Below, one piece after another: positions 1,184-41,012 of a stretch of DNA of 64,000 nt (within the stretch, counting starts at the first letter, position 1; the number at the start of each line of letters is the position of its first letter). The notes beneath the pieces are model-generated. The model ran no database searches, was not told the DNA's origin, and saw only the letters and a list, made by a program, of their open reading frames with translations. The stretch is taken from the IMG/VR virus record IMGVR_UViG_3300042342_001286, one strand, 5' to 3'. This DNA comes from a virus (lineage: Duplodnaviria > Caudoviricetes). A program made the translations under genes and the position numbers.

Positions 1184-1186
1184 TAA

Positions 1187-1666: not shown

Positions 1667-1853
1667 CGGTATAAAAAATAGACATATATTCAAAACTATT
1701 TTATATCGTCTTATAAGTATTTTAACCTAATTCTTAACAATATGGTGGATAAAGTGGATCTATTAAGATTGAGACCCCCCCAAAAAAAGGTTGTGAAATT
1801 AGTATGTAAACCCCACTTAATACTATATATATGAGATAATTTGGTATAAATGA
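1663..1853 (+). pseudogene. decayed DUF2061-like small membrane protein
   Basis: Pieces in different frames read KNRHIFKTILYRLISILT*FLTIWWI / SGSIKI / YYIYEIIWYK, matching the RxxxKTxxYR...YYxHERxW pattern; in-frame stop and several frameshifts. Confidence 0.5.
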
Positions 1854-1988
1854 ATAAAATATGAACTAAAAGAGAAAAATTAACTATTTATAGATAAAGT
1901 AAAATAGATTTGATAAATTGAATAATTATTTGTATATTTAAATAAAAATAATCGATATATCATTTATAAAAAAGTATAAACAAAACAT

Positions 1989-3524
1989 ATGAGAACATTG
2001 CTATTAGGGACAGATTTTGCATACAATTCAAATGGTGATTTAAGACCAATTGAGATAAACACCAATATTGGTTGGGATGTGAGATTAGCGGCTGAGACTG
2101 AGGGGGCCATAAATTTGACACAATTTATAAGCTTTGTATCAAACAACAATTTTGTAAAGGTCACATTTATCGGTGGAATTCCACAAGTAAGTGAAAAATT
2201 TAATGAGGCTTGTGTTAATTTGGGGGTAGAATATGAATTTATTGAAACTTTAGGGGGTATTACAATTCCATATATTGAAGATAGTGATAATCACTTAATT
2301 GTAAGAAGTGCCTACGATGTTTCAGCAATCGTTGACGAAACTTACTGCAAAGATAAAGTAAATTTTTTAAAACTGTTTCAGAATGAAAATTTTGGGTTTA
2401 AGTTTGCATATATGGATGAAACTTCACAAGTTATATCAAATATAACGACCATACCTAATAATGGTATACACCCAAACTTTATTTTAAAAGCAAGATTTCC
2501 AATATATGATAGGGAAGTATACCCAAAATTTTTTAAAGTTTCAAATATTGAAGAATTAAATGAAGTTATTACAAATAATGTAAATGAAGATTATTTCTTA
2601 ATGGAATATTTGTTTAATGAGGAAAAATTAAACGAAGGACGTATTACAATTATTCGTTCCTTAAATATCTTATACCCACCAACATTAGAATCGATTCCTA
2701 TCTGTGCATACAAAAAATATGGTAATTTAAAGGTTATGCAAGAATTAAATGACAACTCATATGATAGTCTAACACATCAAATTTCTAATGTAGATAGAAA
2801 CGGATACTTAACAGGGACACAAAGGTTGGTGAAACCTAAATTACTTGATACGGATTTAGTTGTAATGGCAGATGGTAGTTTTAAAACAGGGCAAGATTTA
2901 CAGGTTGGTGATACTGTTAAAACAATTAGACTATATGAAAATCAACCTAACATAACTGAGGCCAACGAATTGAGGACATATAACGTTGATTATAATGAAC
3001 TTCTTTCAAATTCATCATTTAGTACCAATGTAATAACATTTAAAAAAAGAATTGATGTTTCAGTTAAATTAACAACACTAAACTTTAGTGACGAAACAAA
3101 TTGGAAAGATACATCAAATTCTGTTTATTTAATAAAAAGAAATAACAATGTTATGTGGGCAACAATTGGGGAAGATATAAACACACAAACTACATCAAAT
3201 TTACAAATAGGGGATATATTATTATTAATAAATGTTGGTAATTATGATACTATTTCATTTAATGAAAAAACTGTGATATCTATACAAGACGAAACCGAAG
3301 TATTAAGTGGATATATAATAGGTGTACAAGACGAACATATTTTCCTAACCATAACAGATGGTGATTCTGCAACCGTATCATCATATATCGCAGTAGAACA
3401 CAATTCATATTGTGCACCATGTAATTCAATTGGAGTAGGGTCTGGTGGATGTGATAAGATGTATGAAGTTTGTTCGGCAACAGGTGCTTGTGGATATTAT
3501 TCAAATAGATGTCTACAACTCTAA
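1989..3524 (+). CDS. circularly permuted ATP-grasp-like ligase fused to a Hint domain and a C-terminal Cys-rich peptide
   Basis: N-terminal GTDF...IEINTN, then FILKAR and FLMEYL (permuted ATP-grasp order); LVVMADGSFK...LQVGD Hint start; VEHN/S Hint end; 39-aa tail with 6 Cys. Confidence 0.7.
   Translation: MRTLLLGTDFAYNSNGDLRPIEINTNIGWDVRLAAETEGAINLTQFISFVSNNNFVKVTFIGGIPQVSEKFNEACVNLGVEYEFIETLGGITIPYIEDSDNHLIVRSAYDVSAIVDETYCKDKVNFLKLFQNENFGFKFAYMDETSQVISNITTIPNNGIHPNFILKARFPIYDREVYPKFFKVSNIEELNEVITNNVNEDYFLMEYLFNEEKLNEGRITIIRSLNILYPPTLESIPICAYKKYGNLKVMQELNDNSYDSLTHQISNVDRNGYLTGTQRLVKPKLLDTDLVVMADGSFKTGQDLQVGDTVKTIRLYENQPNITEANELRTYNVDYNELLSNSSFSTNVITFKKRIDVSVKLTTLNFSDETNWKDTSNSVYLIKRNNNVMWATIGEDINTQTTSNLQIGDILLLINVGNYDTISFNEKTVISIQDETEVLSGYIIGVQDEHIFLTITDGDSATVSSYIAVEHNSYCAPCNSIGVGSGGCDKMYEVCSATGACGYYSNRCLQL
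2838..3404 (+). other. Hint (intein-like/BIL) domain with Lys at position 1 and terminal His-Asn
   Basis: KLLDTDLVVMADGSFKTGQDLQVGDTV aligns to the CLxxGTxVxMADGxxKxIxxLxVGD pattern; ends HIFLT...VEHN followed by Ser; no homing endonuclease insert visible. Confidence 0.75.
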
Positions 3525-3545
3525 AAAACTATTAAAATTTATATT

Positions 3546-3632
3546 ATGAATACAATAACAGAACAAGAAATATTAGAAATGAATAATTTAATGACCCAAA
3601 TCGGTGCATTAATTATTAACGAAAATTCTTAA
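3546..3632 (+). CDS. 28-aa micro-ORF
   Basis: ATG...TAA reading MNTITEQEILEMNNLMTQIGALIINENS fills the gap after the ATP-grasp-Hint gene. Confidence 0.45.
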   Translation: MNTITEQEILEMNNLMTQIGALIINENS

Positions 3633-3670
3633 AAAATTACACCTATCGTTTAATTAGTTATATTTAATCA

Positions 3671-3955
3671 ATGAGTTTAGATTTATTAGAAATAGTATCC
3701 GCATGGATAACAGCAGCAAACCCATCTGACGCAGAAGCGTCCCTTGCACAAAAACGTTCAGAAATTTGTAATTCTTGTGAACACAAAAAAGAACGTATAA
3801 AAAAATTTAAATTAGGTATAGTTTGTGATTTATGTGGATGTCCATTAATGAAAAAAATTTATTCTAAAAATAACAATCCATGCCCGATTGGAAAATGGGA
3901 AGAAGTTGACAAGTTGTTTTTTGCAAAAAAATTAAATAATGAAAAAATTATTTAA
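3671..3955 (+). CDS. small Cys-rich metal-binding phage protein
   Basis: CNSC...CDLCGCP...CPIGKW pattern. Confidence 0.7.
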   Translation: MSLDLLEIVSAWITAANPSDAEASLAQKRSEICNSCEHKKERIKKFKLGIVCDLCGCPLMKKIYSKNNNPCPIGKWEEVDKLFFAKKLNNEKII

Positions 3956-4638
3956 TGTCAATTCTTATTAACAATCAACTTATTTGGGTTTCAATTCCAA
4001 GATGTGCGTCTGTCTCAATAGAAGATTCATTAAAAAATAATAATCAATTACAAATAAATCTAACATCTAAAGAACCCTACCCCAATATAAATACAAACCA
4101 CCATTTTCATTTTAGAAAAAACTTCTTATTAGAAGAATTTGGTTTTCAAAAAACTTGTTGTATCACAAGAAATTGGTTTGACAGATGGTATAGTGCATTG
4201 GAATATTTTTTTGAAATATCAAATCATCTTCATAGAAACGAATTAAAATATAATTGGTCGGATATTGATAATAACTTTATTTATGAATATTTTAATAAAA
4301 ATTTAGCAGATGCAATATATTGTGATAATGAATATAAAATACAAAAAGAATATAGTAAATTTTTTAATGTAATAAATAAAAACTTACCCGATACGTTATC
4401 GATATTTGCATGTAAGAATTATTGGACAGATAACACAAAATGTGATTATGAATTTGATATTTCCGAAATAGATAAATTCAAAAATTTAATATATGAAAAA
4501 TTTGGTGTAGTATTAAAAATTAAAAAAATGAATGGAACATCAAAAATAAAAAATAAAATTGAAGTTAATGATGAATTAAAAAAATGGGTTTGGGATGTTT
4601 TTGAAAAGCCCTTCACCAAAAATATGAGATTAGTGTAA
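3955..4638 (+). CDS. sulfotransferase family protein
   Basis: WVSIPRCASVSI (IPKxAxTS-like) and ITRNWFDRWYSA (RxPxxRxxS-like). Confidence 0.6.
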   Translation: MSILINNQLIWVSIPRCASVSIEDSLKNNNQLQINLTSKEPYPNINTNHHFHFRKNFLLEEFGFQKTCCITRNWFDRWYSALEYFFEISNHLHRNELKYNWSDIDNNFIYEYFNKNLADAIYCDNEYKIQKEYSKFFNVINKNLPDTLSIFACKNYWTDNTKCDYEFDISEIDKFKNLIYEKFGVVLKIKKMNGTSKIKNKIEVNDELKKWVWDVFEKPFTKNMRLV

Positions 4639-5264
4639 TGAAACAAAAATCTAATTTATATATTTGTGGTGATAGTTTTGTTGATTGGGAAGTACCTAAA
4701 ATGCATTGGACGGACTATCTATCCAATCATTATAACGTAATTAAATTTGGAAAATTTGGAGCTGATAATCACTCTATATTATACCAAACAGGAAATATAC
4801 CAAATTATACAAATGGTGATAGAATCATAATAGTTTTTACATCCCCATCAAGATTCCCAAGAAGATATTTTGGGGAAAGAGAAATAAATCATAATTCAAA
4901 ATATTTAAATTGGGAATGGTATAAGGATAAATTATTTGCAAAAAAACTGTTTGAATTACGAATTAAAGAAACAAATAGTTGGTTAAATGGTGAACGAGAC
5001 GATGAAATTTTATTTCTTAAGAAAATAAAAATGTTTTATAACCACCACCAACCAATATTTGTAACATGGAACGATGAGTTTTATGAAAAAACAAAAGAGT
5101 TTATAGAATTAATAAAAGTAACTTCTATTGCAGATGAAGGAGGTGACCCAATAGATTGGCATCCAGGTTGGAAAGGGTGCCATGATTTTTATGTTAAACT
5201 ACATAAACTTTTAAATATAGATGAACCAATTGTAGATTTTAAAAATAATAAAAGTATAATATGA
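4638..5264 (+). CDS. SGNH/GDSL-like hydrolase or acyltransferase
   Basis: N-terminal CGDSF and C-terminal DWHP. Confidence 0.55.
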   Translation: MKQKSNLYICGDSFVDWEVPKMHWTDYLSNHYNVIKFGKFGADNHSILYQTGNIPNYTNGDRIIIVFTSPSRFPRRYFGEREINHNSKYLNWEWYKDKLFAKKLFELRIKETNSWLNGERDDEILFLKKIKMFYNHHQPIFVTWNDEFYEKTKEFIELIKVTSIADEGGDPIDWHPGWKGCHDFYVKLHKLLNIDEPIVDFKNNKSII

Positions 5265-5842
5265 AAATAGAAAAATATAAAATAGATTATCCATACGATA
5301 AACAAATATTAATTAGTCAACTTAAAAAAAATATTAATTTATATTCATCCCAAACAGGTGATTATGATTCTCCTGGTATACAAACTCCATTAGGATTGGT
5401 CACAAAGGAAATCACTTTCATAAAAGAAATAGCAACTAAAAAGGCAATTGATTATCTCAAAAAGAATGGTATAATTGATACGGTTATAGATTATTGTTTA
5501 GAGACTTGGGTTTTTATATCAAGAAATGAAACAAAACAATCTTTATGGCATGACCATTTAAAAATGGGAGGAAAATATAAAAATTCCATTATAACTGATT
5601 TAACCTTCACTTATTATGTACAAATGCCAAATAATTTAAATGGTAATGAAGGTATGTTCTCATATAGTTTTGATAAAAATGAATTTTCAGTTTTACCTGA
5701 AGAAGACGAATTATTTTTATTTTCGTCAAAAATACTTCACAAACCTGAAATTTCCCCAAATTCAACTAAAGATAGAATTGTAATTGCTGGTAATTTTAAA
5801 TTTAATGTTTCTAATGTAAAAGAAAAAAATACATTATTATAA
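5261..5842 (+). CDS. putative 2OG-Fe(II) oxygenase
   Basis: WHDH, YYVQMP, LHKP...DRIVIAGN. Confidence 0.7.
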   Translation: MKIEKYKIDYPYDKQILISQLKKNINLYSSQTGDYDSPGIQTPLGLVTKEITFIKEIATKKAIDYLKKNGIIDTVIDYCLETWVFISRNETKQSLWHDHLKMGGKYKNSIITDLTFTYYVQMPNNLNGNEGMFSYSFDKNEFSVLPEEDELFLFSSKILHKPEISPNSTKDRIVIAGNFKFNVSNVKEKNTLL

Positions 5843-5928
5843 TTTTATTATGTAATAAATTTTTAACATATAATTAAAATTATAAAATAAATTAATATGA
5901 GAGCTTTAACAACATCAATTTTTTAATA

Positions 5929-6489
5929 ATGGTTATAACAATACTAGCAGAACCACGAAGTGGATCAACCAACTTAACTAATTGGTTTTTTAGTAATAAA
6001 AATTTTACCACATTATTTGAACCCATAACAAGTCCAAATTGGAAGTGGTATAAACATGGTGTATCACCAAAATTGTGGGAATATAAAACACCACACATTT
6101 TAATTAAAGAAACATATGATATTAAAACAGATTTTTCAGAATTAATAGAAATATCAGATAAGGTAATTATTTTATATAGAGAAAATATAAGTGAACAAAG
6201 TGAATCTTGGTTAAATGCTAATAAAACAAATAATTGGGATAAAGCATGGGTATTTAAAGAAAATTTAATAAAAGACGGAGATGTATCATATTTTAATCAA
6301 ATCAAAAACGGATTAAAAGAAAATTATTTAAATAAAGATTATTTTAATATATCATATGAAGAACTATATTACAATAATGGTTTTCAAAAAATATTAGATT
6401 ATTTAAATATGGTTGAATTAGAAAATAAAAATTTTCCTTACGGAGAAAAATATAGAATAAATGTTAATAAAGGAACAAGTCTTATTTAA
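5929..6489 (+). CDS. sulfotransferase-like protein (Stf0-like)
   Basis: EPRSGST PAPS-binding loop, LYREN, ISYEEL. Confidence 0.6.
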   Translation: MVITILAEPRSGSTNLTNWFFSNKNFTTLFEPITSPNWKWYKHGVSPKLWEYKTPHILIKETYDIKTDFSELIEISDKVIILYRENISEQSESWLNANKTNNWDKAWVFKENLIKDGDVSYFNQIKNGLKENYLNKDYFNISYEELYYNNGFQKILDYLNMVELENKNFPYGEKYRINVNKGTSLI

Positions 6490-6961
6490 TAAAGAGGAGT
6501 GTGAATCTATAATATCGTATAACGACACCCATATTAAAAATTGGATAATGAGTGATAGAAAATATAATTCACAATCAATTACATATTCGTTGGAAACGAA
6601 ATGGTTGTTTGATAAACTTAAAACATTTTTTGAAGAACAATCAAACATACGGATAAAAAAAAATAAAGAAGTTATACATTTTCATAAATTTGTAAAAGGT
6701 GATTGGTTTGGAAAACATAATGATATTAGAAATAATAGATTATATGCAGTGGGAGTTTTATTAAATGGTGATTTTGAAGGAGGTGACTTTAAATTGTATA
6801 ACCCAAATGAAATTACATTAGATAAAGTTATTGGGAATACATATTTATTTGATGTAAGAATAGACCATGAAATAACACCAATTTTAGAAGGTGTACGATA
6901 TTCTTTATTATGGTTTTTAGAAAACGAACATATAAAAATAGAAACAAATAAATTAATATGA
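6461..6961 (+). CDS. 2OG-Fe(II) oxygenase
   Basis: KHND, FEGGDF, HEITPILEGVRYSL. Confidence 0.85.
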   Translation: MLIKEQVLFNKEECESIISYNDTHIKNWIMSDRKYNSQSITYSLETKWLFDKLKTFFEEQSNIRIKKNKEVIHFHKFVKGDWFGKHNDIRNNRLYAVGVLLNGDFEGGDFKLYNPNEITLDKVIGNTYLFDVRIDHEITPILEGVRYSLLWFLENEHIKIETNKLI

Positions 6962-7770
6962 ATCCACTAAAATATTGGGACCCTAATGAATTTGAAATCT
7001 CATCGTACAAGTTTAAATTAGGTGAACGAAAAAACAAAATATTTAAAACATCAGGTACAGACAACACAGGTTTATGTACATACACATATAATGAATTAGG
7101 ATTTAGAGGTGATAGTATTAAAAGAGAAGGGTTTAAAATTATGTCATTTGGATGTTCAAATACCGAAGGTGTTGCGGTTAATGATCATGAAACTTGGCCA
7201 GCTCAATTCACATCATTGATACCAAATGGTGTTAATTTTAATTTTGGTGCTGGCGGTAGAAGTAATGATTTCATTGTTAGATGTTTATTAACGTATTATG
7301 ATGTAATAAAACCTGATTTAATATTTATAATGTATCCTTCACCTTTAAGAAGAGAAATATATACTAAAGATTGTGGTATTGAACCGTTCATGCCAACGGC
7401 TTCTTGGGGTTATTTAAAAGAAACTGATGATGGTATTAAAACACAAGAATATTTAACTTATTTACAAAATTATAATGAGGATACCGTAAATTGGTATAAA
7501 AATCATTTATTAATAAAATATTTTTTAGAATCTAAAAATTGTAATTGGGTATGGAATGGTTGGAATGTTAGAGAAATAACATCGATAGATCATAATGAAC
7601 TCAACAGATTTGATGGTGATTATGGGAAATATTTAGATTTAGGTGTGGATAATGGACATCCAGGGCCTAACCATAATAAGACCTATGCAAATAAACTACA
7701 TGATTTTATATCAAAAAATTTCCCAAGTTATATAAATTATTTACCAAAAAATAAACAAAATTTGATTTGA
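6958..7770 (+). CDS. SGNH-like protein
   Basis: YNELGFRG, FGCSNTEG, FNFGAGG, DNGHPG. Confidence 0.55.
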   Translation: MNPLKYWDPNEFEISSYKFKLGERKNKIFKTSGTDNTGLCTYTYNELGFRGDSIKREGFKIMSFGCSNTEGVAVNDHETWPAQFTSLIPNGVNFNFGAGGRSNDFIVRCLLTYYDVIKPDLIFIMYPSPLRREIYTKDCGIEPFMPTASWGYLKETDDGIKTQEYLTYLQNYNEDTVNWYKNHLLIKYFLESKNCNWVWNGWNVREITSIDHNELNRFDGDYGKYLDLGVDNGHPGPNHNKTYANKLHDFISKNFPSYINYLPKNKQNLI

Positions 7771-11196: not shown

Positions 11197-13325
11197 TGGG
11201 ATATACACAATTTAATGATGATGTTTTTGTAGTTGACTGCTGGCCTGATAATAAAGATAAAGAAAATGTTTTAAAGAAATTACTTATAAGTTTAAAGGTT
11301 TATAACTGTCCCATTATATTATGTGGACATTATGCAGTTTCACCTGAGATACAAGTGTTAGCAGATTACTATCTATATGATGGTAATAACGACATATTAT
11401 TAGAAAAGGATTTTGCTGAGTATGGTATTAATAGTGATAGATGGACCGATATGGGTTCATATAAGATAACTAATAAAATAGATTTTCATCACGACTATGC
11501 AATTTGGTTGACAATGAAAAATGCTTTCAATCTTGTTAAACAATTAGGTAAACAATATATTCATTTCTTAGAGTATGATAACTTACCAGATGAAATTCAG
11601 TATCGTCAAGCATTTATGGAATATATTAGAAGTAATGATGCCGTGGTTTACGAGTATTCAGAAGGATCAACAAAAGAAAGTAATCCATATAGTTCAGCTT
11701 ATATCTTTTCAATTAAGACCGATGTTGCGTTAAAGATGATTAGTCTTATTAATAGTAAAGAAGAATACTTCAAGGGTAAACCCGATAGATGGCAATTAGA
11801 AAAACAATTATACCAATCAATTAAGAAGGTTACCAATAGTATATTTGTTAGTAAGTATATCCCTAATGATAATGAACTTAATATGTTTGCGGTATGGAAC
11901 AGAAATGGTATATTAAAAAATGGTGCACGTTTACAAACTTATTTAGGTGTTGATGATGCGGGACAATTGTTTATTCATTTTATATCCGGATTTTCAGAAC
12001 AACCAGCCGATAAGGATTATTTAATTGAAGTTAACTATGGAACATATAAAAAATTCCATACAGTTAAAAAGGGTGAATACAAATTAGAAAGACTCGGTGA
12101 ATATAAACAAAATGAAGTAGTTGAAGTACGTCATCAAGGATTGGAAATATTCACACAGGAACTTAAAGATGAAATGAATGAGTTTAGAAGAAAGAATAAA
12201 CTATCAAGAAATAATGTTAACACAAATAGAAGAACTAACATACATTTTGTTGATGGTCCATTTGTTGAGGTATTAGAAGAAGGTGATTATCTTTATAATG
12301 TTAAATTTATAGATAAGAAAAATGGTAAATTAGAATTTGAGTTTAATTTAAAGAGTAATCATTGGGTTAGGTCGTCTAAAAAATACTATGTAGATTGGTT
12401 AATTAAAATTAAAGGCGTTGATAATAATTTCTACCAAGAGTATAATTTTGATTTAACGGATAAAAGAGTAATGATATGTTTTGAATCTAAATCATTAGGA
12501 GATAGTTTGGCTTGGATACCATATGTTGAGAAATTTAGAACAGATAATAAATGTAAAGTAATTTGTTCATCATTCAATAACGATCTATTCAAAGATCAGT
12601 ATCCCGATATTGAGTTCGTTTTACCTGGATCAAATGTAAATAATATACATGCGTTGTATCGTTTAGGTTTATTTTATACCAATGATCGTAAAATTGATAA
12701 CACAAAACATTACAACGATCCTAAAAGGGAACCATTAATGAAAGTGGCGTCCGACATTCTTGGATTAGATTATTTGGAACTTAAACCTAAATTAAAGAAA
12801 TTAGGTAAGAAGAAGAAAAAATTGGTTTCAATTGCTATTCATTCAACAGCTCAATGTAAATATTGGAATAACCCGACTGGTTGGCAGGAGGTGGTAGATT
12901 ATCTTAAAGCTAAGAATTATGAAGTTAGACTCTTATCTCGTGAGGAAGATGGTTACATGGGTAACAAACATCCTAAAGGAATTACGGTACAACCTAAGAG
13001 TAAACTGACCGATATCATAAAAGTTTTACAAGAGTCTGAATTATTTATAGGTATAAGCAGTGGATTAAGTTGGTTATCTTGGGCGTCAGGAACCCCTACA
13101 GTAATTATTTCAGGTTTTACTGACGTAGATTTAGAACCATTAGACGGTGTAACAAGGGTAATCAATAAAAATGTATGTAATAGTTGTTGGTCTAACCATG
13201 AATTTGATCCAGGTAATTGGAATTGGTGTCCCATTCATGAGAAGACAGAAAATCAGTTTGAATGTTCAAAAACTATCACAGGAGGAGAAGTTATAGAAAA
13301 ACTCGAAAAACTTCTACCAATTTAA
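11196..13325 (+). CDS. Aah/TibC-like autotransporter O-heptosyltransferase (GT9-like) with extra N-terminal domain
   Basis: SLGDSLAWIPY, KYWNNPTGW, FIGISSGLSWLSW and four C-terminal Cys (CNSC, WCP, FEC) like the TibC iron site. Confidence 0.8.
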   Translation: MGYTQFNDDVFVVDCWPDNKDKENVLKKLLISLKVYNCPIILCGHYAVSPEIQVLADYYLYDGNNDILLEKDFAEYGINSDRWTDMGSYKITNKIDFHHDYAIWLTMKNAFNLVKQLGKQYIHFLEYDNLPDEIQYRQAFMEYIRSNDAVVYEYSEGSTKESNPYSSAYIFSIKTDVALKMISLINSKEEYFKGKPDRWQLEKQLYQSIKKVTNSIFVSKYIPNDNELNMFAVWNRNGILKNGARLQTYLGVDDAGQLFIHFISGFSEQPADKDYLIEVNYGTYKKFHTVKKGEYKLERLGEYKQNEVVEVRHQGLEIFTQELKDEMNEFRRKNKLSRNNVNTNRRTNIHFVDGPFVEVLEEGDYLYNVKFIDKKNGKLEFEFNLKSNHWVRSSKKYYVDWLIKIKGVDNNFYQEYNFDLTDKRVMICFESKSLGDSLAWIPYVEKFRTDNKCKVICSSFNNDLFKDQYPDIEFVLPGSNVNNIHALYRLGLFYTNDRKIDNTKHYNDPKREPLMKVASDILGLDYLELKPKLKKLGKKKKKLVSIAIHSTAQCKYWNNPTGWQEVVDYLKAKNYEVRLLSREEDGYMGNKHPKGITVQPKSKLTDIIKVLQESELFIGISSGLSWLSWASGTPTVIISGFTDVDLEPLDGVTRVINKNVCNSCWSNHEFDPGNWNWCPIHEKTENQFECSKTITGGEVIEKLEKLLPI

Positions 13326-13385
13326 ACATATTTTTTATACAATTTGAAAGTTCAAAGTATTTATAAGGGTATAACAATATAACCT

Positions 13386-14843
13386 ATGAAAATATTTGAC
13401 GCAAATGTCTCTGGATCACTAAATGTATCGGGCTCGGCTCGTTTTTTTGGAGATCTTACCGTAGACGGAACAATAAATGCAACCATTAGTGGTACAACAT
13501 CAAACGCTTCGGCCCTAAACACAACAGGTTCCGCTCGTTTTGCAACCACAGGTAGTAACACATTTAACGCTAACCAAACAATTAGTGGATCAATAATCCC
13601 TGCCGTTACTAATACTTACGATTTGGGTGACCCAACACATTGGTGGAAGGACATCTACGTATCAACAGGATCTATCTTTATTGGTGGAATTAAAGCTATC
13701 AGTACAAACTCTGATGGTACAATACAAGTAGGTGCTCAAGTTGTACAAACTTCAGCAAGTTTGGCCGCAGTAGGTCTTGCACTTCCTCCAACAGGTTCTA
13801 TAGGAACAAGTCAAAGTACGATAGTAGGTAGTCAAAATATTACAGGTAGTCAATCTATCACAGGTAGTTTGGCTGTTAGTGGTAGTATGGTTGTGACTGG
13901 TTCATTATTCATTAATGGAACATCATATACTGCCGCTTCATCAGGAACTTCAGGTTCTTCTGGTTCTAGTGGATCTAACGGTTCATCAGGAACTTCAGGT
14001 TCTTCAGGATCTAACGGTTCTTCAGGTTCTTCAGGAACATCAGGATCTAGTGGATCTAACGGTTCTTCAGGAACTTCAGGTTCTTCAGGATCTAACGGTT
14101 CTTCAGGTTCTTCAGGAACATCAGGATCTAGTGGATCTAACGGTTCTTCAGGAACTTCAGGTTCTTCAGGATCTAGTGGATCTTCAGGAACTTCAGGTTC
14201 TAGTGGATCTAACGGTTCTTCAGGTTCTAGTGGATCTAACGGTTCTTCAGGAACATCAGGATCTAGTGGTTCTTCAGGAACATCAGGTTCTTCAGGAGCT
14301 AACGGTTCTTCAGGAACTTCAGGTTCTTCAGGATCTAACGGTTCTTCAGGTTCTTCTGGTACAACAACAATTACAAACGCAAGTGATGACCGTGTAATGA
14401 CAAGTGCGGGTGGAGTTACCCTAAATAGTGAAGCAAATTTAACATTTAACGGAACAACACTATATGTGGCAGGAGCGTTAGGTGTGGGTACATCAACACC
14501 AACAACCACAGGTTTAATTAGAGCAACAAATGACGTTATTGCATTCTACGGTTCTGATGAAAGACTAAAAGAAAACATCACACCAATTGAAAATTCTTTA
14601 GATATCTTAAAACAAATAAATGGTTATTACTTCGATTGGAAGGAAATGCCAGGTGTTCATGAGAACGAAGGTCACGATATAGGGGTTATTGCACAAGAAA
14701 TTGACGCAGTTTTACCTGAAATTGTAACAACAAGAGACAACGGTTATATGGCTGTTAAATACGAAAAATTAGTTGCATTGTTAATTCAAACAAACAAAGA
14801 ATTATTAAATCGTGTTGAAGCTTTAGAAGCGAAAATAAAATAA
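13386..14843 (+). CDS. tail fibre/spike protein with Ser/Gly repeat and C-terminal peptidase S74 (intramolecular chaperone) domain
   Basis: YDLGDPTHWWKDIY fibre motif; GSDERLKENI, GVIAQEI, VKYEKLVALLI and coiled-coil end. Confidence 0.85.
   Translation: MKIFDANVSGSLNVSGSARFFGDLTVDGTINATISGTTSNASALNTTGSARFATTGSNTFNANQTISGSIIPAVTNTYDLGDPTHWWKDIYVSTGSIFIGGIKAISTNSDGTIQVGAQVVQTSASLAAVGLALPPTGSIGTSQSTIVGSQNITGSQSITGSLAVSGSMVVTGSLFINGTSYTAASSGTSGSSGSSGSNGSSGTSGSSGSNGSSGSSGTSGSSGSNGSSGTSGSSGSNGSSGSSGTSGSSGSNGSSGTSGSSGSSGSSGTSGSSGSNGSSGSSGSNGSSGTSGSSGSSGTSGSSGANGSSGTSGSSGSNGSSGSSGTTTITNASDDRVMTSAGGVTLNSEANLTFNGTTLYVAGALGVGTSTPTTTGLIRATNDVIAFYGSDERLKENITPIENSLDILKQINGYYFDWKEMPGVHENEGHDIGVIAQEIDAVLPEIVTTRDNGYMAVKYEKLVALLIQTNKELLNRVEALEAKIK
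13938..14360 (+). repeat. 47 tandem 9-nt units encoding SSG/TSG/SNG/ANG
   Basis: Counted from the translation; Gly every third residue; contains a near-identical 81-nt direct duplication. Confidence 0.95.
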
Positions 14844-22270: not shown

Positions 22271-22881
22271 ACTTTATAATAATTTTCTTTTAAATCATTT
22301 TCATTTATATAATTTATTTTTTTCATAATGACTTGATAACCGTTATACACTATTTCTAAATATTTGTGATATCCATGATAAAACGCGTCAGCACCAGTTT
22401 TAACTTGTAAATATTGATCTTGTTCAAGTCCTCCACCGTAATCATCAAAGATAATATAACCATAATCTTTCAAACAGTAAAATGCATTTACAGCATCTTC
22501 TAAAACATATTTACACATATGATTACCATCTATGTAAACAAAGTCTAAAAACTCTTTAGTTTCACCATTATGGTTAAATGTTTTAAAACTATCGGCCGAT
22601 TCACCTAAAATATATGTTACCTTATCTTTATATGGTTTAATATTATTTTCAATAAATTCATTTGTATTGATATCCATTATATAATGATGTGAACCTTCTT
22701 TTTTACAAAATTCATCTAAAATGTAAACTGATGATCCACCATACAATGCACCTATTTCTAAACATACTCTTGGTTCATTACCATAGTTAGGTAAAAAATG
22801 CTCCCACGAATCTACATGATTTAAAAAGAAATAACGTTCTCCTTCTGGATACTTAAAATGTTTTGGATATTGATAACTCAT
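22267..22881 (-). CDS. class I SAM-dependent methyltransferase
   Basis: LEIGALYG, VYIDGNH, IIFDDY. Confidence 0.8.
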   Translation of the reverse strand: MSYQYPKHFKYPEGERYFFLNHVDSWEHFLPNYGNEPRVCLEIGALYGGSSVYILDEFCKKEGSHHYIMDINTNEFIENNIKPYKDKVTYILGESADSFKTFNHNGETKEFLDFVYIDGNHMCKYVLEDAVNAFYCLKDYGYIIFDDYGGGLEQDQYLQVKTGADAFYHGYHKYLEIVYNGYQVIMKKINYINENDLKENYYKV

Positions 22882-23498
22882 AATGAACTATAGTAATTGT
22901 TTTGTTTTTCTTGACGATCAATCGTCTTATGGTGTTGTATACAATATTCTTCATCTAAAGGTAATGATGAAAATTTCTGACCACCTATTATTCGTTCGTG
23001 AACCTTACCATACCAACTCATACCTTTACGGTATATTCGTCCTTGAGCATCGGGAAAGTTTACCCATCCTTTTTCATTAACATTCCAACCCCATTTATTA
23101 ATGTGTTCTTGTGTTATACCATTAACTGTATTAATACGAGGAACAAATATTAAATCAACCTTTGGATTTAATTCTAATATTTGATTAAGATTTTTAACTA
23201 TATATTCACTAACCATTTCATCGGCATCTATTTGATAGATGTAATCTCCCTGACAGTAGTCATTTAATTTATTTTTCCAATCTGCAAAGTTACCTTCAAA
23301 ATCAAAACCTCTCCACGTTTGAACGTGAGGGAATTTATTATATGGTAATAAGAAATCTAATATTTCGGAATTGCCGTTCTTCTCATCATAGAGAATAACA
23401 ATCTCGTCTTCCTTTCTTTTATGTTTAAATAAAAATGAAACCAATTTTTTTATTTCCTCTAATTCATTACAAACTGTAATTGCAAAACTTATTTTCAT
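22878..23498 (-). CDS. GT2 glycosyltransferase
   Basis: FAITVCNE, QIDADE, HERI. Confidence 0.8.
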   Translation of the reverse strand: MKISFAITVCNELEEIKKLVSFLFKHKRKEDEIVILYDEKNGNSEILDFLLPYNKFPHVQTWRGFDFEGNFADWKNKLNDYCQGDYIYQIDADEMVSEYIVKNLNQILELNPKVDLIFVPRINTVNGITQEHINKWGWNVNEKGWVNFPDAQGRIYRKGMSWYGKVHERIIGGQKFSSLPLDEEYCIQHHKTIDRQEKQNNYYSSL

Positions 23499-23499
23499 A

Positions 23500-23742
23500 T
23501 TATGCTCTTTGTCCTCCGTTTATTCTTCCCGTTAATATATTTATTACTTCGTTGTCAATTTCTTCCACAATTTGTTCCGACATTAATCTTGTTAATTCGG
23601 CCTCAGCATCAATTGAGTAAACGGTATTTAAATCATCAACCAACTCAGGTCTCCATTGAGCACGTAGTGTTCTAACGATATTCTGAATACCTTCTGATTG
23701 AATTGTTATCCCATGAAAAAATCTAAACTCTCTAACACCCAT
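23500..23742 (-). CDS. 80-aa protein containing a T4 gp23-type major capsid spine-helix segment
   Basis: RTLRAQWRPELVDDL...IDAEAELTRLMSEQIVEEIDNEVI matches the recalled gp23 pattern RKLKAQWTxELAQDL...DAEAELxxILSxEIxxEIxREI. Confidence 0.7.
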   Translation of the reverse strand: MGVREFRFFHGITIQSEGIQNIVRTLRAQWRPELVDDLNTVYSIDAEAELTRLMSEQIVEEIDNEVINILTGRINGGQRA

Positions 23743-25004
23743 TATTTAACTTTATTTAACTTAGGTAAAATTAATTTGGTTTGTTGTGGAGGAGGTTGAA
23801 ACGCAATTGAATATGGTTTTAATATCTCCTCAAAACGTTCTTTCATTTTTTCTAAAGAAAAGTTTTGTTTATTCTCTTCTTTAAGTTTTAAAGATTTTAG
23901 TAAGAAATTACTATAATCGTTTCTAGCTATTTTCATAATTTCAGCAACTTCACCATAATTTGCGGTAAACCATTTAGATCCTTTAATAATAAACTGATCA
24001 ATTGCACTATCGTCAACATCTGTTAATTTACCACCAATCATAATTGATTTATCAACAGATAAAAAATCTTTATGACCCGACCAATTGGAAGCCATTACAG
24101 GTTTACCAGTCATTGTAAATTCTAATAAAGGTCTACCAAATCCCTCACCTTTAGTTAGTGAAACCATTAGTTTAATTTTTGGATGGTTATATAGATCATT
24201 CATTTCTTTATTACTTAAATCACCAAATAATAAATAAATAGACGGAGGATTTTTAATATCAGAAACAATATCTTTTATTTTTTTAGTAAAAACTTCCCTT
24301 TCTTTAATTGAAAAACTTGATGATGATGTTTTTAACACTAACGCTGGCATATCATTACCATCCTTAAATGCCTCAACAAAACATTTAATCAACATACCGA
24401 TGTCTTTCCTGTCTTGACCTATGTTTCCTTTTAACCAATGACCAACAAATAAAAATGCGAAGTTTTCTTTAATATCTAATTTAAAATCTTTATTGATTAC
24501 ATCATTAAAGATTGATGTATCAACACCTTCAAATAACACTTCAATTGGTTTTGTTATCTTATGTTGATTAGTTAATTCATTTGTTGTTTTATTTCTTTCA
24601 TCATAAACTGTAGATAATAAAACATCTTTAGAAAAATTAGATGTTGTAATTATTAAATCCATTTGATTACAACCATCAATCCAATCTTTAGGTGCAACAG
24701 TTGTTTCAATTCCTGCGGTGATACCTATATTAAATTTACCAAATCTTTTAAATTCATTAGGTACCGTTACTTGTATATAGATATCAGGTAGACCGTCAAA
24801 TTTATAAACGATATTACTTTCAATCCATTTATGAAATGTATTATCCGGTTCCAAAGCAGTCATGGGAGTATTCCCCCACATACAACTATCAATTTTAATA
24901 TCAAATAAATTCATTTGATACAATGCCTCTAATAAATCTCTTGAGTGTGAACCATATCCACTTCTTGTTTTAACTGGTCCTCTAAATAATATTGTTGGTT
25001 TCAT
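23742..25004 (-). CDS. GT4 glycosyltransferase
   Basis: RSGYG, FVGHW, RKDI, KGEGFGRPLLEF. Confidence 0.85.
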   Translation of the reverse strand: MKPTILFRGPVKTRSGYGSHSRDLLEALYQMNLFDIKIDSCMWGNTPMTALEPDNTFHKWIESNIVYKFDGLPDIYIQVTVPNEFKRFGKFNIGITAGIETTVAPKDWIDGCNQMDLIITTSNFSKDVLLSTVYDERNKTTNELTNQHKITKPIEVLFEGVDTSIFNDVINKDFKLDIKENFAFLFVGHWLKGNIGQDRKDIGMLIKCFVEAFKDGNDMPALVLKTSSSSFSIKEREVFTKKIKDIVSDIKNPPSIYLLFGDLSNKEMNDLYNHPKIKLMVSLTKGEGFGRPLLEFTMTGKPVMASNWSGHKDFLSVDKSIMIGGKLTDVDDSAIDQFIIKGSKWFTANYGEVAEIMKIARNDYSNFLLKSLKLKEENKQNFSLEKMKERFEEILKPYSIAFQPPPQQTKLILPKLNKVK

Positions 25005-26365
25005 TAAATTACTTTATATAAATTAAATCTTTCACGTGGTGTAAAATTCTTTATTGTTTTTTGTATTCCTTCACTCATAGCATCACACATAACTTTTGAC
25101 GATAAGTTATTGATTGCCCACTCTCTTCCCACTTGACCATTCTCTTTTCTTTTTTCTTTACCTAACAAATACATTTCAGTAATAGCATCAGCAACTTCTT
25201 CATCATTAACTCTATCATCATAAATGTAAGGTGTTAATGGGGATCCATTAATGTTAATTGCGGAAGGCCATATTGGTTTAACCCACACACCATAAGGTGT
25301 ATCTTTATGAATTTGTTTATTGTGTAAAGTTTTAATATTGACGTAATCATCCGCAGTATAATTAAACCCACATTGATCTTGTAAACCACCCGTTACACTA
25401 ACAATAATCGGTGTACCAGCCATAATACTCTCAGCGGTACCTAAACCAAATCCCTCATTGTTTGCAATGTTAATCGTACAGTCAGCAATATTATAGAGTT
25501 TATTTAACACATCACTTTCAATTTTATTAGTTGAGAAAACCACATCATAATTAGGACATATTTTATCCCTAACCGCATATAGATCTGTACCATTGTTATC
25601 AATCGGAGTTGTATGCATAACTAAAACACATTTATCTGATTGTTCTTTGGTTAACTTATCACAAAATAATTTAAATGACTCAATAACATCTGAAGGTTGT
25701 TTTCTACGAATATTTCTACTGTTAAAAAATAAAACAAAGTCATATTCTTTATCACCAAACAAACCTTTTTTAACGTCAATCAATTCTTTATCCTCCAACG
25801 GTTTAAATGTATCTTGATTGATACCATGAGGAACATAACTAATTTGCCAATCTTGTAATGGTTTACGAAACTCATCTTCCATTTTACCAACACGATTAAC
25901 AATACCATAAGTTAATTTGGATATACATCCTAACCAATCACAACTTTCGTAGTAATCTTTATTGTACATTGGGTCAGGTAAATTGTCCCATATATGATAA
26001 TATAAAATTGGGACTTGTTGTCTTATTTCATGTTCGGAGTCATATAACCATTGCCAATAATGGGGGTCAGTAAAATGTAAGATAGCATCTATTTTCATTT
26101 CTGATAATATCTTTCTTAACATTACAATATCACCATATGAATTATATGGTATAATTTTTAATTCAGCATCTTTAACTCCTGTCTTTTGTCTAGCATCTTC
26201 GTTAACGTCAACAAATTTACCAGCTTCATGATGATTAATTCCAGCACCCAATTGAACCCAATTAAATCTATCCAAAGTACCCATTACAAATTCTCTAGAC
26301 ATTGTGGAAATACCTGAAGTCATTCGTAAATCATCTGACAGTAATAGTATTCTTGGTTTACCCAT
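25004..26365 (-). CDS. GT4 glycosyltransferase
   Basis: VPHG, RNIRRK, NEGFGLGTAES; ATG start chosen at MGKPR. Confidence 0.85.
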   Translation of the reverse strand: MGKPRILLLSDDLRMTSGISTMSREFVMGTLDRFNWVQLGAGINHHEAGKFVDVNEDARQKTGVKDAELKIIPYNSYGDIVMLRKILSEMKIDAILHFTDPHYWQWLYDSEHEIRQQVPILYYHIWDNLPDPMYNKDYYESCDWLGCISKLTYGIVNRVGKMEDEFRKPLQDWQISYVPHGINQDTFKPLEDKELIDVKKGLFGDKEYDFVLFFNSRNIRRKQPSDVIESFKLFCDKLTKEQSDKCVLVMHTTPIDNNGTDLYAVRDKICPNYDVVFSTNKIESDVLNKLYNIADCTINIANNEGFGLGTAESIMAGTPIIVSVTGGLQDQCGFNYTADDYVNIKTLHNKQIHKDTPYGVWVKPIWPSAININGSPLTPYIYDDRVNDEEVADAITEMYLLGKEKRKENGQVGREWAINNLSSKVMCDAMSEGIQKTIKNFTPRERFNLYKVI

Positions 26366-26366
26366 A

Positions 26367-26564
26367 TTAATATTTTGATCCACTCACAGATAAATCTGTG
26401 TAGTTATTTATTTTATTTCTAAACACATCATCTTTAACATAAAGATCTAAAGTACGATTAACTAACTTTTGTAAATTAATATTACCATCAATTGCATTTA
26501 TTTTAAATTTTCTGTAAACGTCTTCCAATACATGGACACTCGTTAATTTTTTTTCTACTTTCAT
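26367..26564 (-). CDS. small putative ribbon-helix-helix DNA-binding protein
   Basis: LTSVHV strand followed by two predicted helices. Confidence 0.5.
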   Translation of the reverse strand: MKVEKKLTSVHVLEDVYRKFKINAIDGNINLQKLVNRTLDLYVKDDVFRNKINNYTDLSVSGSKY

Positions 26565-26825: not shown

Positions 26826-26908
26826 AGTATTTCTTTTTTTATAAATATTTTGGTTTATTGTTTTTATTTCTTATATTTTAATAATACAAAAAATAAATTT
26901 AAATATCA

Positions 26909-39268: not shown

Positions 39269-39297
39269 ATCCCCACAGAAATGTGGGGATTTTTTTT
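39269..39297 (+). terminator. intrinsic terminator with GAAA tetraloop
   Basis: ATCCCCACA-GAAA-TGTGGGGAT followed by a T run. Confidence 0.9.
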
Positions 39298-39304
39298 GTA
39301 TTAT

Positions 39305-39335
39305 TTTGTATATTCAAAAACATTTCATATCTTTG
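39305..39335 (+). promoter_or_regulatory. Bacteroidota-type sigma70 promoter
   Basis: TTTG(39305)-19 nt-TATCTTTG(39328). Confidence 0.75.
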
Positions 39336-39340
39336 TTGGT

Positions 39341-39754
39341 ATGAATATATTACTAATAATTTTCATAATATTGGTTTGGGTAACCTCATCTGTATATGTG
39401 ATGTATTATCATAATAAACATTACACATTAGGTTTGGATATGGTAATAGGTGCAATATTGTTAGGACCAATATTAGCTTTAATAGTGGGAAAGGATGTTG
39501 AAGAGAAGAAGAAATATTATGGGGTAATGGAACAGGAGAGTAATGATAGACATAGAGGATGGTTTAGAACAATGTCAGAAATTAATAGACAACGAATGAC
39601 AAGTTTTGGTAGGTCCATTCCACCTCCACCACCAATATCACGAATTGCCCAAGCACAATCAGAGAGAGATGAAGCAGTTAGGTCGGCAATAGAAAGAATA
39701 GATAAAAATAAATTAAAAGACTTCAAATTTTTGAGGAGTAATGTTAAAGATTGA
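39341..39754 (+). CDS. two-TM membrane protein with C-terminal FKFL tag
   Basis: ATG just after the promoter; ends KLKDFKFLRSNVKD. Confidence 0.65.
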   Translation: MNILLIIFIILVWVTSSVYVMYYHNKHYTLGLDMVIGAILLGPILALIVGKDVEEKKKYYGVMEQESNDRHRGWFRTMSEINRQRMTSFGRSIPPPPPISRIAQAQSERDEAVRSAIERIDKNKLKDFKFLRSNVKD

Positions 39755-40439: not shown

Positions 40440-41012
40440 ATGACAACTAAAGAAAGAATAGAAAAATGTTTAGAGAAACATGAGAATAAAAATATAGTAG
40501 ATAATAATTTACCGTTTTTTGATTACGTTTTAGAATGTTACAATAAATGTATACCACAATCTTATGGACCTAAGATTGAAAAGAGAATTATTAAAGAATA
40601 TAATTTAGGTAGTATAAAAAAAAGTCAAAGTAGGGGAGATTTTTATGTTAAGGAAAATTCAATTATTTCATCAACATTTAAAAATATTTTTAAACCAAAC
40701 GATTCTTCGGAAATAAAAGTTAGTTTTTTAAGTGGCCTTGGTAATAGTGCTTCGTTTAACTTCATTCAACTTAGACCATATGAAACGTTTGATTTTTATA
40801 CATTTGTTACGATAGATTTTGATTTGATTAACAGAGATGCAATATTGGAATGGTATTTATTAAAAAAAGATGTTGTCCATAATGAATTTAATCTTCATCT
40901 TATTCATGGAGGAAAAGAAAGTAATAAAGAAAATAAAAATAAAGAATATAAATTACATGTTGTTAAAAATTCCGAACAACATAAAAAATTGAAGGAATTA
41001 AATTTAATATGA
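40440..41012 (+). CDS. putative PD-(D/E)xK restriction endonuclease
   Basis: RGDFY...EIKVS; overlaps a methyltransferase gene. Confidence 0.5.
   Translation: MTTKERIEKCLEKHENKNIVDNNLPFFDYVLECYNKCIPQSYGPKIEKRIIKEYNLGSIKKSQSRGDFYVKENSIISSTFKNIFKPNDSSEIKVSFLSGLGNSASFNFIQLRPYETFDFYTFVTIDFDLINRDAILEWYLLKKDVVHNEFNLHLIHGGKESNKENKNKEYKLHVVKNSEQHKKLKELNLI

What the first reader, a model, noticed from the sequence alone, without database searches (positions are those of the whole stretch)
23500..23742. Free-standing fragment of a T4-like major capsid spine helix with an FRFFHG tag
Seen: residues ~24-74 closely match the gp23 RKLKAQW...ELAQDL...DAEAEL...EIxREI segment (from memory), in an intact 80-aa ORF with a different N-terminus, inside a glycosylation operon. 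Established: several anti-phage systems sense major capsid proteins. Inference: a decoy or titrator of a capsid-sensing defence, a dominant-negative against competing phages, or an assembly modulator. It also supports a T4-like identity.
Basis: partly seen in the sequence, partly recalled or inferred. Interest (0 to 1): 0.72.

Follow-up and report, generated by a model that had tools for sequence, protein, structure and literature searches.

The report
Tagged mini-gene copied from capsid protein
A giant uncultured lake-water phage keeps a tiny, well-conserved gene, inside its sugar-transferase operon, that encodes only one inner piece of its T4-type capsid protein plus a short label; it is a real gene and not debris, but what it does is still unknown.

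Summary
Window 23500-23742 (-) is an intact 80-aa ORF. Residues 11-70 match the gp23 major-capsid family (Pfam PF07068, E 4.8e-12, above cut-off) and align to T4 gp23 residues 251-310. By the T4 structure paper these are I-domain linker 2, a P-domain strand and the spine helix.

It is not debris:
- More than 120 near-identical clusters and a broad 70-140-aa family exist in metagenomes.
- pN/pS is 0.09 over the first 33 codons and 0.46 over the rest.
- The start overlaps the stop of the upstream glycosyltransferase.

A complete 335-kb sister genome has a separate full-length 591-aa capsid gene. The mini-gene is only 51% identical to it, yet groups with that capsid clade, so it is an old, fast-evolving offshoot.

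FRFFHG is one instance of a clade-specific F[KR]F[FL]xG terminal label (17 ORFs against 0.33 expected).

In the nine module-bearing loci compared, with mini-proteins down to about 40% identity to the window's, the gene sits between the same GT4-like and GT2 genes. That slot holds unrelated genes, or none, in other T4-like phages, so a glycosylation role is suggested but not shown.

My best guess (about 0.3) is a capsid-protein mimic acting on unassembled capsid protein late in infection. A defence decoy and a label-directed cargo remain open.

This scan already found the same family on other DNA (e1-5378015, e1-5378003, e1-5374659, e1-5374661).

The parts
23500..23742 (-). Mini-capsid gene, 80 aa plus stop (P0001)
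   Evidence: Intact ORF. Pfam Gp23 E 4.8e-12. Orthologs in 12 IMG/VR loci and more than 120 protein clusters at 86-99% identity. pN/pS below 1.
23710..23727 (-). N-terminal label FRFFHG (residues 6-11), one instance of the clade-wide F[KR]F[FL]xG motif
   Evidence: F6, F8, F9 and G11 are invariant or nearly so across the whole family. The motif is enriched at N-termini, 17 against 0.33 expected in G001. The DNA pattern gives 20 matches against 1 control in G001 and is at control level in four other T4-like phages.
23533..23712 (-). Capsid-derived block (residues 11-70), aligned to T4 gp23 251-310: I-domain linker 2, P-domain strand, spine helix
   Evidence: Alignments. Structural names of the T4 segments come from PMC9546572. 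AlphaFold predicts a helix at residues 46-75 with pLDDT about 78; the rest is low-confidence.
23503..23520 (-). Conserved C-terminal end NGGQRA (residues 75-80)
   Evidence: N75, G77, R79 and A80 are invariant in the close set. An ..RA end is present in nearly all family members, sometimes after an inserted DYLNRWLDIG-like stretch. It is unique to this gene in G001.
23742..25004 (-). Upstream GT4-like glycosyltransferase (GT_B, 420 aa); its stop codon overlaps the mini-gene's ATG by one base
   Evidence: Weak Pfam Glycos_transf_1 hit. The sequence TAATG is seen. The gene is conserved upstream in all related loci.
25004..26383 (-). GT4 glycosyltransferase (GT_A, 459 aa)
   Evidence: Pfam Glycos_transf_1 E 2.4e-10; syntenic in relatives.
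22878..23498 (-). Downstream GT2 glycosyltransferase (206 aa), starting one base after the mini-gene's stop
   Evidence: Pfam Glycos_transf_2; syntenic in all relatives.
26840..26847 (-). TATTTATA (sense orientation), 14 nt upstream of the first gene of the minus-strand operon; a candidate promoter element
   Evidence: The sense-oriented motif lies within 60 nt upstream of 10 gene starts, including the fibre-like gene at 13386. The opposite orientation occurs once. Promoter function is inferred, not shown.

Best explanation
SHOWN: this is a real protein-coding gene, a 'mini-capsid protein'. It is an old, fast-evolving offshoot of the gp23-type capsid gene of this jumbo-phage clade. It keeps only the segment that in T4 gp23 forms I-domain linker 2, one P-domain strand and the spine helix. 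In front of that segment is the clade's F[KR]F[FL]xG label, and the protein ends in a conserved NGGxRA.

INFERRED (about 0.3): it acts as a soluble mimic of that part of the capsid subunit. In the assembled T4 shell this is the part on or near which the neighbouring subunit's I-domain and linkers dock. The mini-protein would therefore bind unassembled capsid protein, or a factor that recognises this segment. It would be made late, together with the glycosylation enzymes it is co-translated with, and would help time or direct the handling of capsid protein, possibly its glycosylation, before assembly. On its own it is largely unfolded apart from one long acidic helix and needs a partner. It cannot be a shell subunit.
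For: A gene and not debris:
- It is an intact ORF with a conserved Met, stop and length in 12 loci.
- More than 120 clusters at 86-99% identity and 503 small homologs were found.
- The family is diverse down to about 40% identity.
- Summed pN/pS is 0.09 over codons 1-33, with synonymous changes present, and 0.46 over the rest.

Origin:
- A clade capsid HMM hits it at E 8e-20.
- On a 54-column tree the minis group with the capsid proteins of G001 and its three nearest relatives, support 0.88.
- They share R-x-L-R-A where other clades have K.
- It is only 51% identical to the sister genome's own capsid protein.

Needs a partner: two AlphaFold runs gave pLDDT 56 and 60. Only the helix at 46-75 reached about 78.

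Structural role of the copied segment in T4 (PMC9546572):
- The I-domain of the neighbour lies on the junction of spine helix and A domain.
- Linker 2 makes inter-capsomer contacts.
- Spine-helix mutations bypass the gp31 chaperonin.

Context:
- The start overlaps the stop of GT_B, and GT2 starts one base after the stop.
- The order GT_B - (small ORF X) - mini - GT2 is kept in relatives whose mini-proteins are 40-52% identical to the window's.
- The operon is preceded by the same TATTTATA motif as a fibre-like gene.
- Some family members add the second most conserved capsid block after the helix, in permuted order. That fits a rebuilt 'base' of the subunit.
Against: - No binding was shown for any partner.
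- The slot between GT_B and GT2 holds unrelated proteins in phage immuto, G006 and G008, and nothing in G009. The synteny may therefore reflect vertical inheritance of a permissive insertion site and not a functional link.
- A 518-kb relative has capsid-block mini-genes outside any sugar operon and with another motif.
- Small ORF X, the usual neighbour, is absent in this window.
- Whether the phage's capsid is glycosylated at all is unknown.
- The label is shared with unrelated small proteins, so part of the function may lie in the label and not in the capsid block.
- The tree rests on only 54 columns.
Confidence: 0.3

Rival explanations
1. Immune decoy or titrator. The isolated, highly conserved capsid block binds a host sensor that recognises T4-type capsid protein and blunts abortive infection.
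For: - Capsid proteins are established triggers: Gol-Lit (PMC3014915) and CapRel (PMC9712102, listed).
- The copied block is among the most conserved parts of the capsid protein, 82% mean identity among 59 capsid proteins.
- Related jumbo phages carry several mini-genes made of conserved capsid blocks.
- Fast evolution of the minis would fit an arms race.
Against: - No sensor is known for this segment. The Lit trigger, as I recall it and read on T4 gp23, is gp23 93-122, which this gene lacks.
- An isolated Gol peptide activates Lit and does not block it (PMC3014915), so a fragment is not automatically a decoy.
- The gene sits in a late-looking glycosylation operon and not among early anti-defence genes.
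- The most constrained part includes the label and linker, not only the capsid block.
Confidence: 0.2
2. Label-directed cargo. The F[KR]F[FL]xG label takes a set of small proteins to one common place or hub: the prohead interior as with T4 capsid-targeting sequences, a membrane anchor, or a protease. In this reading the capsid block is only this member's payload or an extra prohead-binding module.
For: - The label is strongly enriched at termini and is clade-specific.
- It sits on about 10 unrelated small ORFs in the window, and at the C-terminus of two proteins with hydrophobic N-termini.
- Small ORF X next to the mini-gene also carries it.
- Some minis carry it at both ends.
- T4 internal proteins share a 10-19-residue N-terminal targeting peptide (PMC9026906).
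Against: - By eye I saw no consistent (L/I)-x-E protease site after the label (sequences), unlike T4 targeting sequences.
- A C-terminal label on membrane-type proteins does not fit packaging into heads.
- No receptor for the label is known.
Confidence: 0.2
3. Weapon against co-infecting relatives. A dominant-negative fragment poisons capsid assembly of competing T4-like phages, as satellite-encoded capsid-redirecting proteins do to their helpers.
For: - The block matches capsid proteins of many aquatic T4-like phages about as well as its own, 45-55%.
- From my own knowledge, not checked here: satellites use capsid-protein homologs to redirect helper assembly.
Against: - It would also meet its own capsid protein.
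- It is far more diverged than capsid proteins are from one another, so it is not a close mimic of any rival.
- It is co-expressed with late glycosylation genes.
Confidence: 0.1
4. Decaying remnant of a capsid-gene duplication with no function.
For: Only one 60-residue block of a roughly 590-residue protein survives.
Against: - Intact in every locus, with conserved start and stop.
- pN/pS is 0.09 in the first 33 codons, with synonymous changes.
- The family spans 40-100% identity.
- The gene is translationally coupled to its neighbours.
Confidence: 0.02

Closest known systems
gp23-type major capsid protein and its vertex paralog gp24 (Pfam PF07068, HK97 fold; PDB 5VF3, 6UZC, 8T9R)
   Same: Clear homology over one block, profile positions 135-194 (T4 gp23 251-310). 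It most likely derives from this clade's own capsid gene.
   Different: It covers only 60 of 376 profile positions. It lacks the N-arm, I-domain, A-domain and the rest of the P-domain, so it cannot form the fold or a shell. It lies outside the head module, carries a foreign N-terminal label and C-terminal motif, and evolves much faster.
T4 gp67 (PIP), the 80-aa prohead core protein
   Same: A small free-standing phage protein of the same length. Part of it resembles a piece of the capsid protein: gp67 against the gp23 propeptide gives 35% over 48 residues, pairwise E 0.002. It acts in head assembly (PMC9026906).
   Different: There is no sequence similarity to this protein (E 9). gp67 resembles the N-terminal propeptide, not the spine-helix block. 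gp67 sits in the head gene cluster, and this gene does not.
T4 internal proteins with capsid-targeting sequences (IPI-III, Alt)
   Same: Several unrelated, fast-changing small proteins share one short N-terminal peptide.
   Different: By eye I saw no consistent L/I-x-E cleavage site after the label. The label also occurs C-terminally on membrane-type proteins. Packaging is untested.
Gol region of T4 gp23 (Gol-Lit-EF-Tu exclusion)
   Same: A short, highly conserved capsid-protein segment with a biological activity of its own when made apart from the shell.
   Different: Gol is gp23 93-122 (my recollection; the sequence was read), a different block. This gene lacks it, although relatives such as P0135 carry the equivalent block.
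Conserved GT4-GT4-GT2 sugar operons of aquatic T4-like phages (e.g. Flavobacterium phage immuto, MW353176)
   Same: The same transferase triad in the same order.
   Different: In those phages the slot holds a zinc-ribbon-like protein, another unrelated protein, or nothing, not a capsid fragment.

Membership tests
gp23-type major capsid protein (PF07068) | Significant match to the family profile | tested here: met
   E 4.8e-12, 46.4 bits against a cut-off of 24.4; clade HMM E 8e-20.
gp23-type major capsid protein (PF07068) | Complete HK97-type fold (N-arm, E-loop/I-domain, P- and A-domains; about 450-600 aa) | tested here: not met
   80 aa covering profile positions 135-194 of 376 only. The model shows one confident helix and no domain.
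gp23-type major capsid protein (PF07068) | Sits in the head module beside the scaffold and prohead protease | tested here: not met
   It lies in a glycosyltransferase operon. In G001 the real capsid gene is at 124971-126746 and the mini-gene at about 303 kb.
T4 capsid-targeting-sequence proteins | Short N-terminal peptide shared by several otherwise unrelated small proteins | tested here: met
   F[KR]F[FL] occurs within the first 11 residues of 17 ORFs in G001 against 0.33 expected, and of 8-10 ORFs in the window.
T4 capsid-targeting-sequence proteins | Prohead-protease site (L/I)-x-E directly after the peptide | tested here: not met
   I read the N-termini listed by eye and saw no consistent site. 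In this protein the nearest Glu follows I-Q-S.
T4 capsid-targeting-sequence proteins | Presence of the processed protein inside virions | not testable with these tools
   The phage is uncultured and no proteome is available.
T4 gp67 prohead core protein | Sequence similarity to gp67 | tested here: not met
   BLASTP E 9.1.
Gol-type trigger of Lit | Carries the gp23 93-122 equivalent (..DLVSVQPM.. block) | tested here: not met
   Only HMM positions 290-349 are matched. The block is present in relative P0135, not in this protein.
Family of labelled mini-capsid proteins (unnamed; defined here and in earlier notes of this scan) | N-terminal F[KR]F[FL]xG, then R-x-L-R-A-x-W-x-P-E, then an I-D-A-E-A-E-L-T helix, then an ..RA end; 70-140 aa | tested here: met
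   Alignments A1, A2 and A6.
Family of labelled mini-capsid proteins (unnamed; defined here and in earlier notes of this scan) | Position between the GT4-like GT_B and the GT2 gene | tested here: met
   Window; eight related loci compared; distant members P0135, P0176, P0160 and P0134.

The most novel reading that the evidence does not exclude
Jumbo T4-like phages deploy a repertoire of labelled mini-proteins. Each is an isolated conserved block of a virion protein, and each acts as a molecular decoy or competitor for host immune sensors that recognise those blocks. This gene would be the capsid spine-helix member of that repertoire.
Probability: 0.15. Interest if true: 0.85.

Novelty: new variant of a known kind. 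Interest (0 to 1): 0.55.

Why it matters
Capsid proteins are the most conserved and most abundant phage proteins, and they are now known to be what several bacterial immune systems detect. A widespread, selected gene that encodes only one inner block of the capsid protein is a gene design I found described in no paper. Whichever reading is right, it would show a new way in which large phages reuse pieces of their own structural proteins:
- an assembly or glycosylation helper that imitates a subunit surface;
- a decoy for capsid sensing;
- a label-addressed cargo.

The family is abundant in lake metagenomes. It comes with a clear handle for experiments: an 80-residue protein, a defined label, and a fixed place in an operon.

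Tried and rejected
- Complex prediction of the mini-protein with its three conserved neighbours (GT_B, small ORF X, GT2): no verdict, score 0.00. It counts neither for nor against binding.
- AlphaFold monomer models: pLDDT 56 and 60, too low for a fold search, so none was run.
- The search for related loci with the family alignment failed for lack of conserved stretches. With a sub-family alignment it returned only full-length capsid genes. Those were reused to build a capsid HMM and tree.
- A second capsid fragment in G001 (labelled 157-aa ORF at 12980-13453): Pfam E 1e-3, below cut-off. It is not detected by BLASTP against the genome's own capsid protein or by the clade HMM. Not accepted.
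- Homology to T4 gp67, gp68 or gp22: none.
- Small ORF X against the capsid HMM: no hit. X against the immuto slot protein: no similarity.
- ESM Atlas feature search: nothing above noise.
- The C-terminal ..RA motif on other proteins of G001: none.
- A 1130-aa TPR/STAND-type protein (P0131) hit at E 1e-12 through seven repeats. I judged this a chance resemblance of a TPR repeat.
- Metatranscriptome contigs: a 151-nt contig of a 90%-identical relative covers most of the gene in one RNA library, and a 200-nt contig ends 27 nt into it in another.
- Derivation of the label from the capsid protein's linker strand: the capsid alignment upstream of the block gave no convincing match.

Full report
WHAT IS THERE. 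Window 23500-23742 on the minus strand is an intact 80-aa ORF. Residues 11-70 match the Gp23 major-capsid family above Pfam's own cut-off: PF07068, E 4.8e-12, 46.4 bits against 24.4, profile positions 135-194 of 376. They also match PHROG 138, 'major head protein'. Against solved structures they align to T4 gp23 precursor residues 251-310, E about 7e-5. The window holds no full-length capsid gene.

WHICH PART OF THE CAPSID PROTEIN. By alignment to T4 gp23 and the domain names of the T4 head structures (PMC9546572):
- residues about 11-23 correspond to the P-proximal part of I-domain linker 2;
- residues about 24-34 correspond to a P-domain strand (R-x-L-R-A-x-W-x-P-E);
- residues about 44-72 correspond to the spine helix.

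[quoted passage not shown] This mapping rests on sequence alignment only. Two AlphaFold models of the mini-protein are of low confidence (pLDDT 56 and 60). Only the helix at 46-75 reaches about 78, and the labelled N-terminus is disordered. The protein probably needs a partner to fold.

A KEPT GENE, NOT DEBRIS.
- A length-restricted search found 503 small homologs. The best 120 clusters are 86-99% identical over the full length and lie on contigs up to 335 kb.
- IMG/VR holds 12 loci at 65-100% identity. All have the same Met, the same stop and an open frame.
- Pairwise dN/dS is 0-0.3 for close pairs.
- Split by region, summed pN/pS is 0.09 for codons 1-33 (label, linker, strand) and 0.46 for the helix and tail. 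Synonymous changes occur inside the invariant N-terminal part, so the constraint is on the protein.
- An exhaustive search of 50%-identity representatives shows a wide family of 70-140-aa proteins with the same plan: the N-terminal label M-x(1-3)-F-[KR]-F-F-x-G, a variable linker, the strand motif, the I-D-A-E-A-E-L-T helix, and an end of the form ..INGG..RA, often with an inserted DYLNRWLDIG-like stretch.

ORIGIN. One related record, here G001, is 335,630 bp, 31% G+C, and rated complete by CheckV. It has a separate full-length 591-aa capsid gene at 124971-126746 and the mini-gene at about 303 kb. The two are only 51% identical over 57 residues. I built an HMM from 59 capsid proteins: G001's plus 58 taken from loci. 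It hits the mini-proteins at E 1e-12 to 1e-21. Mean identity in this block is 82% among capsid proteins, 47% among mini-proteins and 48% between the two groups. On a 54-column tree the mini-proteins group with the capsid proteins of G001 and its three nearest relatives, support 0.88. They share Arg where other clades have Lys in R-x-L-[RK]-A. I read this as an old duplication of the clade's own capsid gene followed by fast divergence. The tree is short, so this is the likeliest reading and not a proof.

PERMUTED RELATIVES. Some relatives (P0135 and others) add the second most conserved capsid block (..DLVSVQPM.., HMM positions 72-111) after the helix, that is, in permuted order.

THE LABEL. 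FRFFHG is not private to this gene.
- F[KR]F[FL] lies within the first 11 residues of 17 ORFs in G001, against 0.33 expected from its internal frequency.
- It lies at the N-terminus of 8-10 small ORFs in the window. It also lies at the C-terminus of two proteins with hydrophobic N-termini, at 39281-39754 and 63009-63464.
- A DNA pattern for it gives 20 matches against 1 control in G001. In four other complete or near-complete T4-like phages it stays at control level. The label is therefore specific to this clade.
- Reading the listed N-termini by eye, I saw no consistent L/I-x-E protease site after it, unlike T4 capsid-targeting sequences.
- Some mini-proteins carry a second copy of the label in place of the ..RA end.
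- What the label binds is unknown.

CONTEXT.
- The gene lies in a minus-strand operon of two GT4-like and four GT2 transferases, two methyltransferase-like genes (one below Pfam's cut-off), two epimerase/dehydratases, a deacetylase and a PhyH oxygenase.
- Its ATG overlaps the stop of the upstream GT4-like gene (TAATG), and the GT2 gene starts one base after its stop.
- The order GT_A - GT_B - small ORF X - mini - GT2 - methyltransferase is kept in all related loci compared. It is also kept in distant members whose mini-proteins are 40-52% identical to the window's.
- X is a 76-86-aa protein that usually carries the same label. It is missing in this window. Independent lake-water DNA contigs bridge the GT_B/mini junction exactly as in the window, so this is a real variant.
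- The first gene of the operon is preceded by TATTTATA in sense orientation. This motif lies upstream of 10 gene starts, including a fibre-like gene, against one occurrence in the other orientation. That hints at co-expression with virion genes.

WHY THE SYNTENY IS NOT PROOF. The GT_A-GT_B-GT2 triad also occurs in T4-like phages that have no mini-gene. In those phages the slot between GT_B and GT2 holds a zinc-ribbon-like protein (phage immuto and G008), another unrelated protein (G006), or nothing (G009). A 518-kb relative (G005) has capsid-block mini-genes elsewhere in the genome, with a different internal motif (TR[IV]VI.EKY) and no GT_B homolog. The fixed position may therefore reflect inheritance of a permissive insertion site.

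HOW IT MOST LIKELY WORKS.
Shown: it is a selected, capsid-derived, label-bearing small protein that cannot be a shell subunit.
Inferred, at about 0.3: it is a soluble copy of a subunit surface. It would bind unassembled capsid protein, or a factor that recognises that segment, and would be made with the late sugar enzymes.

Rivals:
- decoy for capsid-sensing immunity (0.2);
- label-addressed cargo in which the label carries the function (0.2);
- interference with rival phages (0.1);
- remnant without function (0.02).

About 0.2 is left for none of these. No reading was tested directly.

COMPARISON WITH KNOWN THINGS.
- It is homologous to gp23/gp24 but fails two of the three defining features tested (complete fold, head-module position). 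I file it as capsid-derived and not as a capsid protein.
- The nearest precedent in kind is T4 gp67. This is an 80-aa prohead core protein that resembles the gp23 propeptide (35% over 48 residues) and acts in head assembly (PMC9026906). There is no homology between gp67 and this protein.
- It is not the Gol block.
- Five literature searches found no description of free-standing capsid-block genes.

EARLIER NOTES OF THIS SCAN. After reaching the points above I found that the scan had already noted the same family on other DNA:
- the same 80-aa gene in two other genomes (e1-5378003, e1-5378015);
- permuted forms (e1-5374659, e1-5374661);
- other labelled capsid-block mini-genes (e1-5319067, e1-5355302, e1-5370882, e1-5404238).

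These are unchecked AI notes and I do not count them as independent support. My own tests agree with them on reality, selection and context. Like them, I leave the function open.

VERDICT. This is a new variant of capsid-derived accessory proteins. Interest is moderate to high for phage biologists, limited by the unknown function and by the fact that this window adds one more instance of a family the scan has already met.

Noticed in passing
window 52318, 55665, 56760, 57029, 59137(-), 60764, 61211, 63461, 63849 (N-terminal); 39281-39754 and 63009-63464 (C-terminal): A clade-specific terminal label F-x-F-[FL]-x-(G) sits on about a dozen unrelated small ORFs. The two C-terminal cases have hydrophobic N-termini. 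In the sister genome there are 17 cases against 0.33 expected.
   Followed up: partly
window 23742 (junction of GT_B and the mini-gene): A 76-86-aa labelled ORF ('X') lies between GT_B and the mini-gene in all relatives but is absent here. Independent lake-water DNA contigs carry the same X-less junction.
   Followed up: yes
window 623-7770 and 40440-41012: Proteins of the modifying-enzyme block end in a different shared C-terminal pattern, roughly N/K-x-x-L-[ILV] (e.g. NKRLL, NMRLV, NKSII, KNTLL, GTSLI, TNKLI, KQNLI, LNLI).
   Followed up: no
window 13358, 14888, 26840(-), 36083, 37948, 42882, 44909, 46189, 57499, 61569: TATTTATA in sense orientation lies 3-29 nt upstream of ten gene starts. 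The reverse orientation occurs upstream of only one. It is a candidate promoter element.
   Followed up: partly
window 60764-61207: A labelled 147-aa ORF has a C-terminal match to ribosome modulation factor (PF04957, E 3.3e-5, below the cut-off).
   Followed up: no
L132 1357-1749(-) and L133 1273-1677(+) (record G005, 518,809 bp): A 518-kb relative has two other capsid-block mini-genes, one with the spine-helix block and one with the N-terminal and VQP blocks. They and neighbouring small ORFs share an internal motif TR[IV]VI.EKY. They are not in a sugar operon.
   Followed up: partly
L041 6001-6369 (P0135): A 123-aa relative carries two capsid blocks in permuted order (HMM 283-346, then 72-111) and the label at both ends. 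It sits in the same GT_B - X - mini - GT2 position.
   Followed up: yes
L002 6455-6913(-); L137 2816-3298; L136 2796-3260; L138: The slot between GT_B and GT2 is variable in other T4-like phages. It holds a zinc-ribbon-like 152-160-aa protein (immuto, G008), an unrelated 154-aa protein (G006), or nothing (G009).
   Followed up: partly
L040 2282-2524 against 4446-6011 (phage T4): T4 gp67 (80 aa) aligns with the gp23 propeptide region, residues 20-67 (35% identity, pairwise E 0.002). This is a known-phage precedent for a small head protein that resembles a piece of the capsid protein.
   Followed up: partly
L021 1465-1938 (G001 12980-13453): A labelled 157-aa ORF has a weak Pfam Gp23 N-terminal match (E 1e-3). 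My clade HMM and BLASTP against the genome's own capsid protein do not confirm it.
   Followed up: yes
L021 (G001 11.5-14.8 kb): In a tandem row of labelled small ORFs, the stop of each gene lies inside the TTTAAA of the next gene's label (..AATGAAACCATTTAAATT..). The junction is therefore conserved at the DNA level as well.
   Followed up: no
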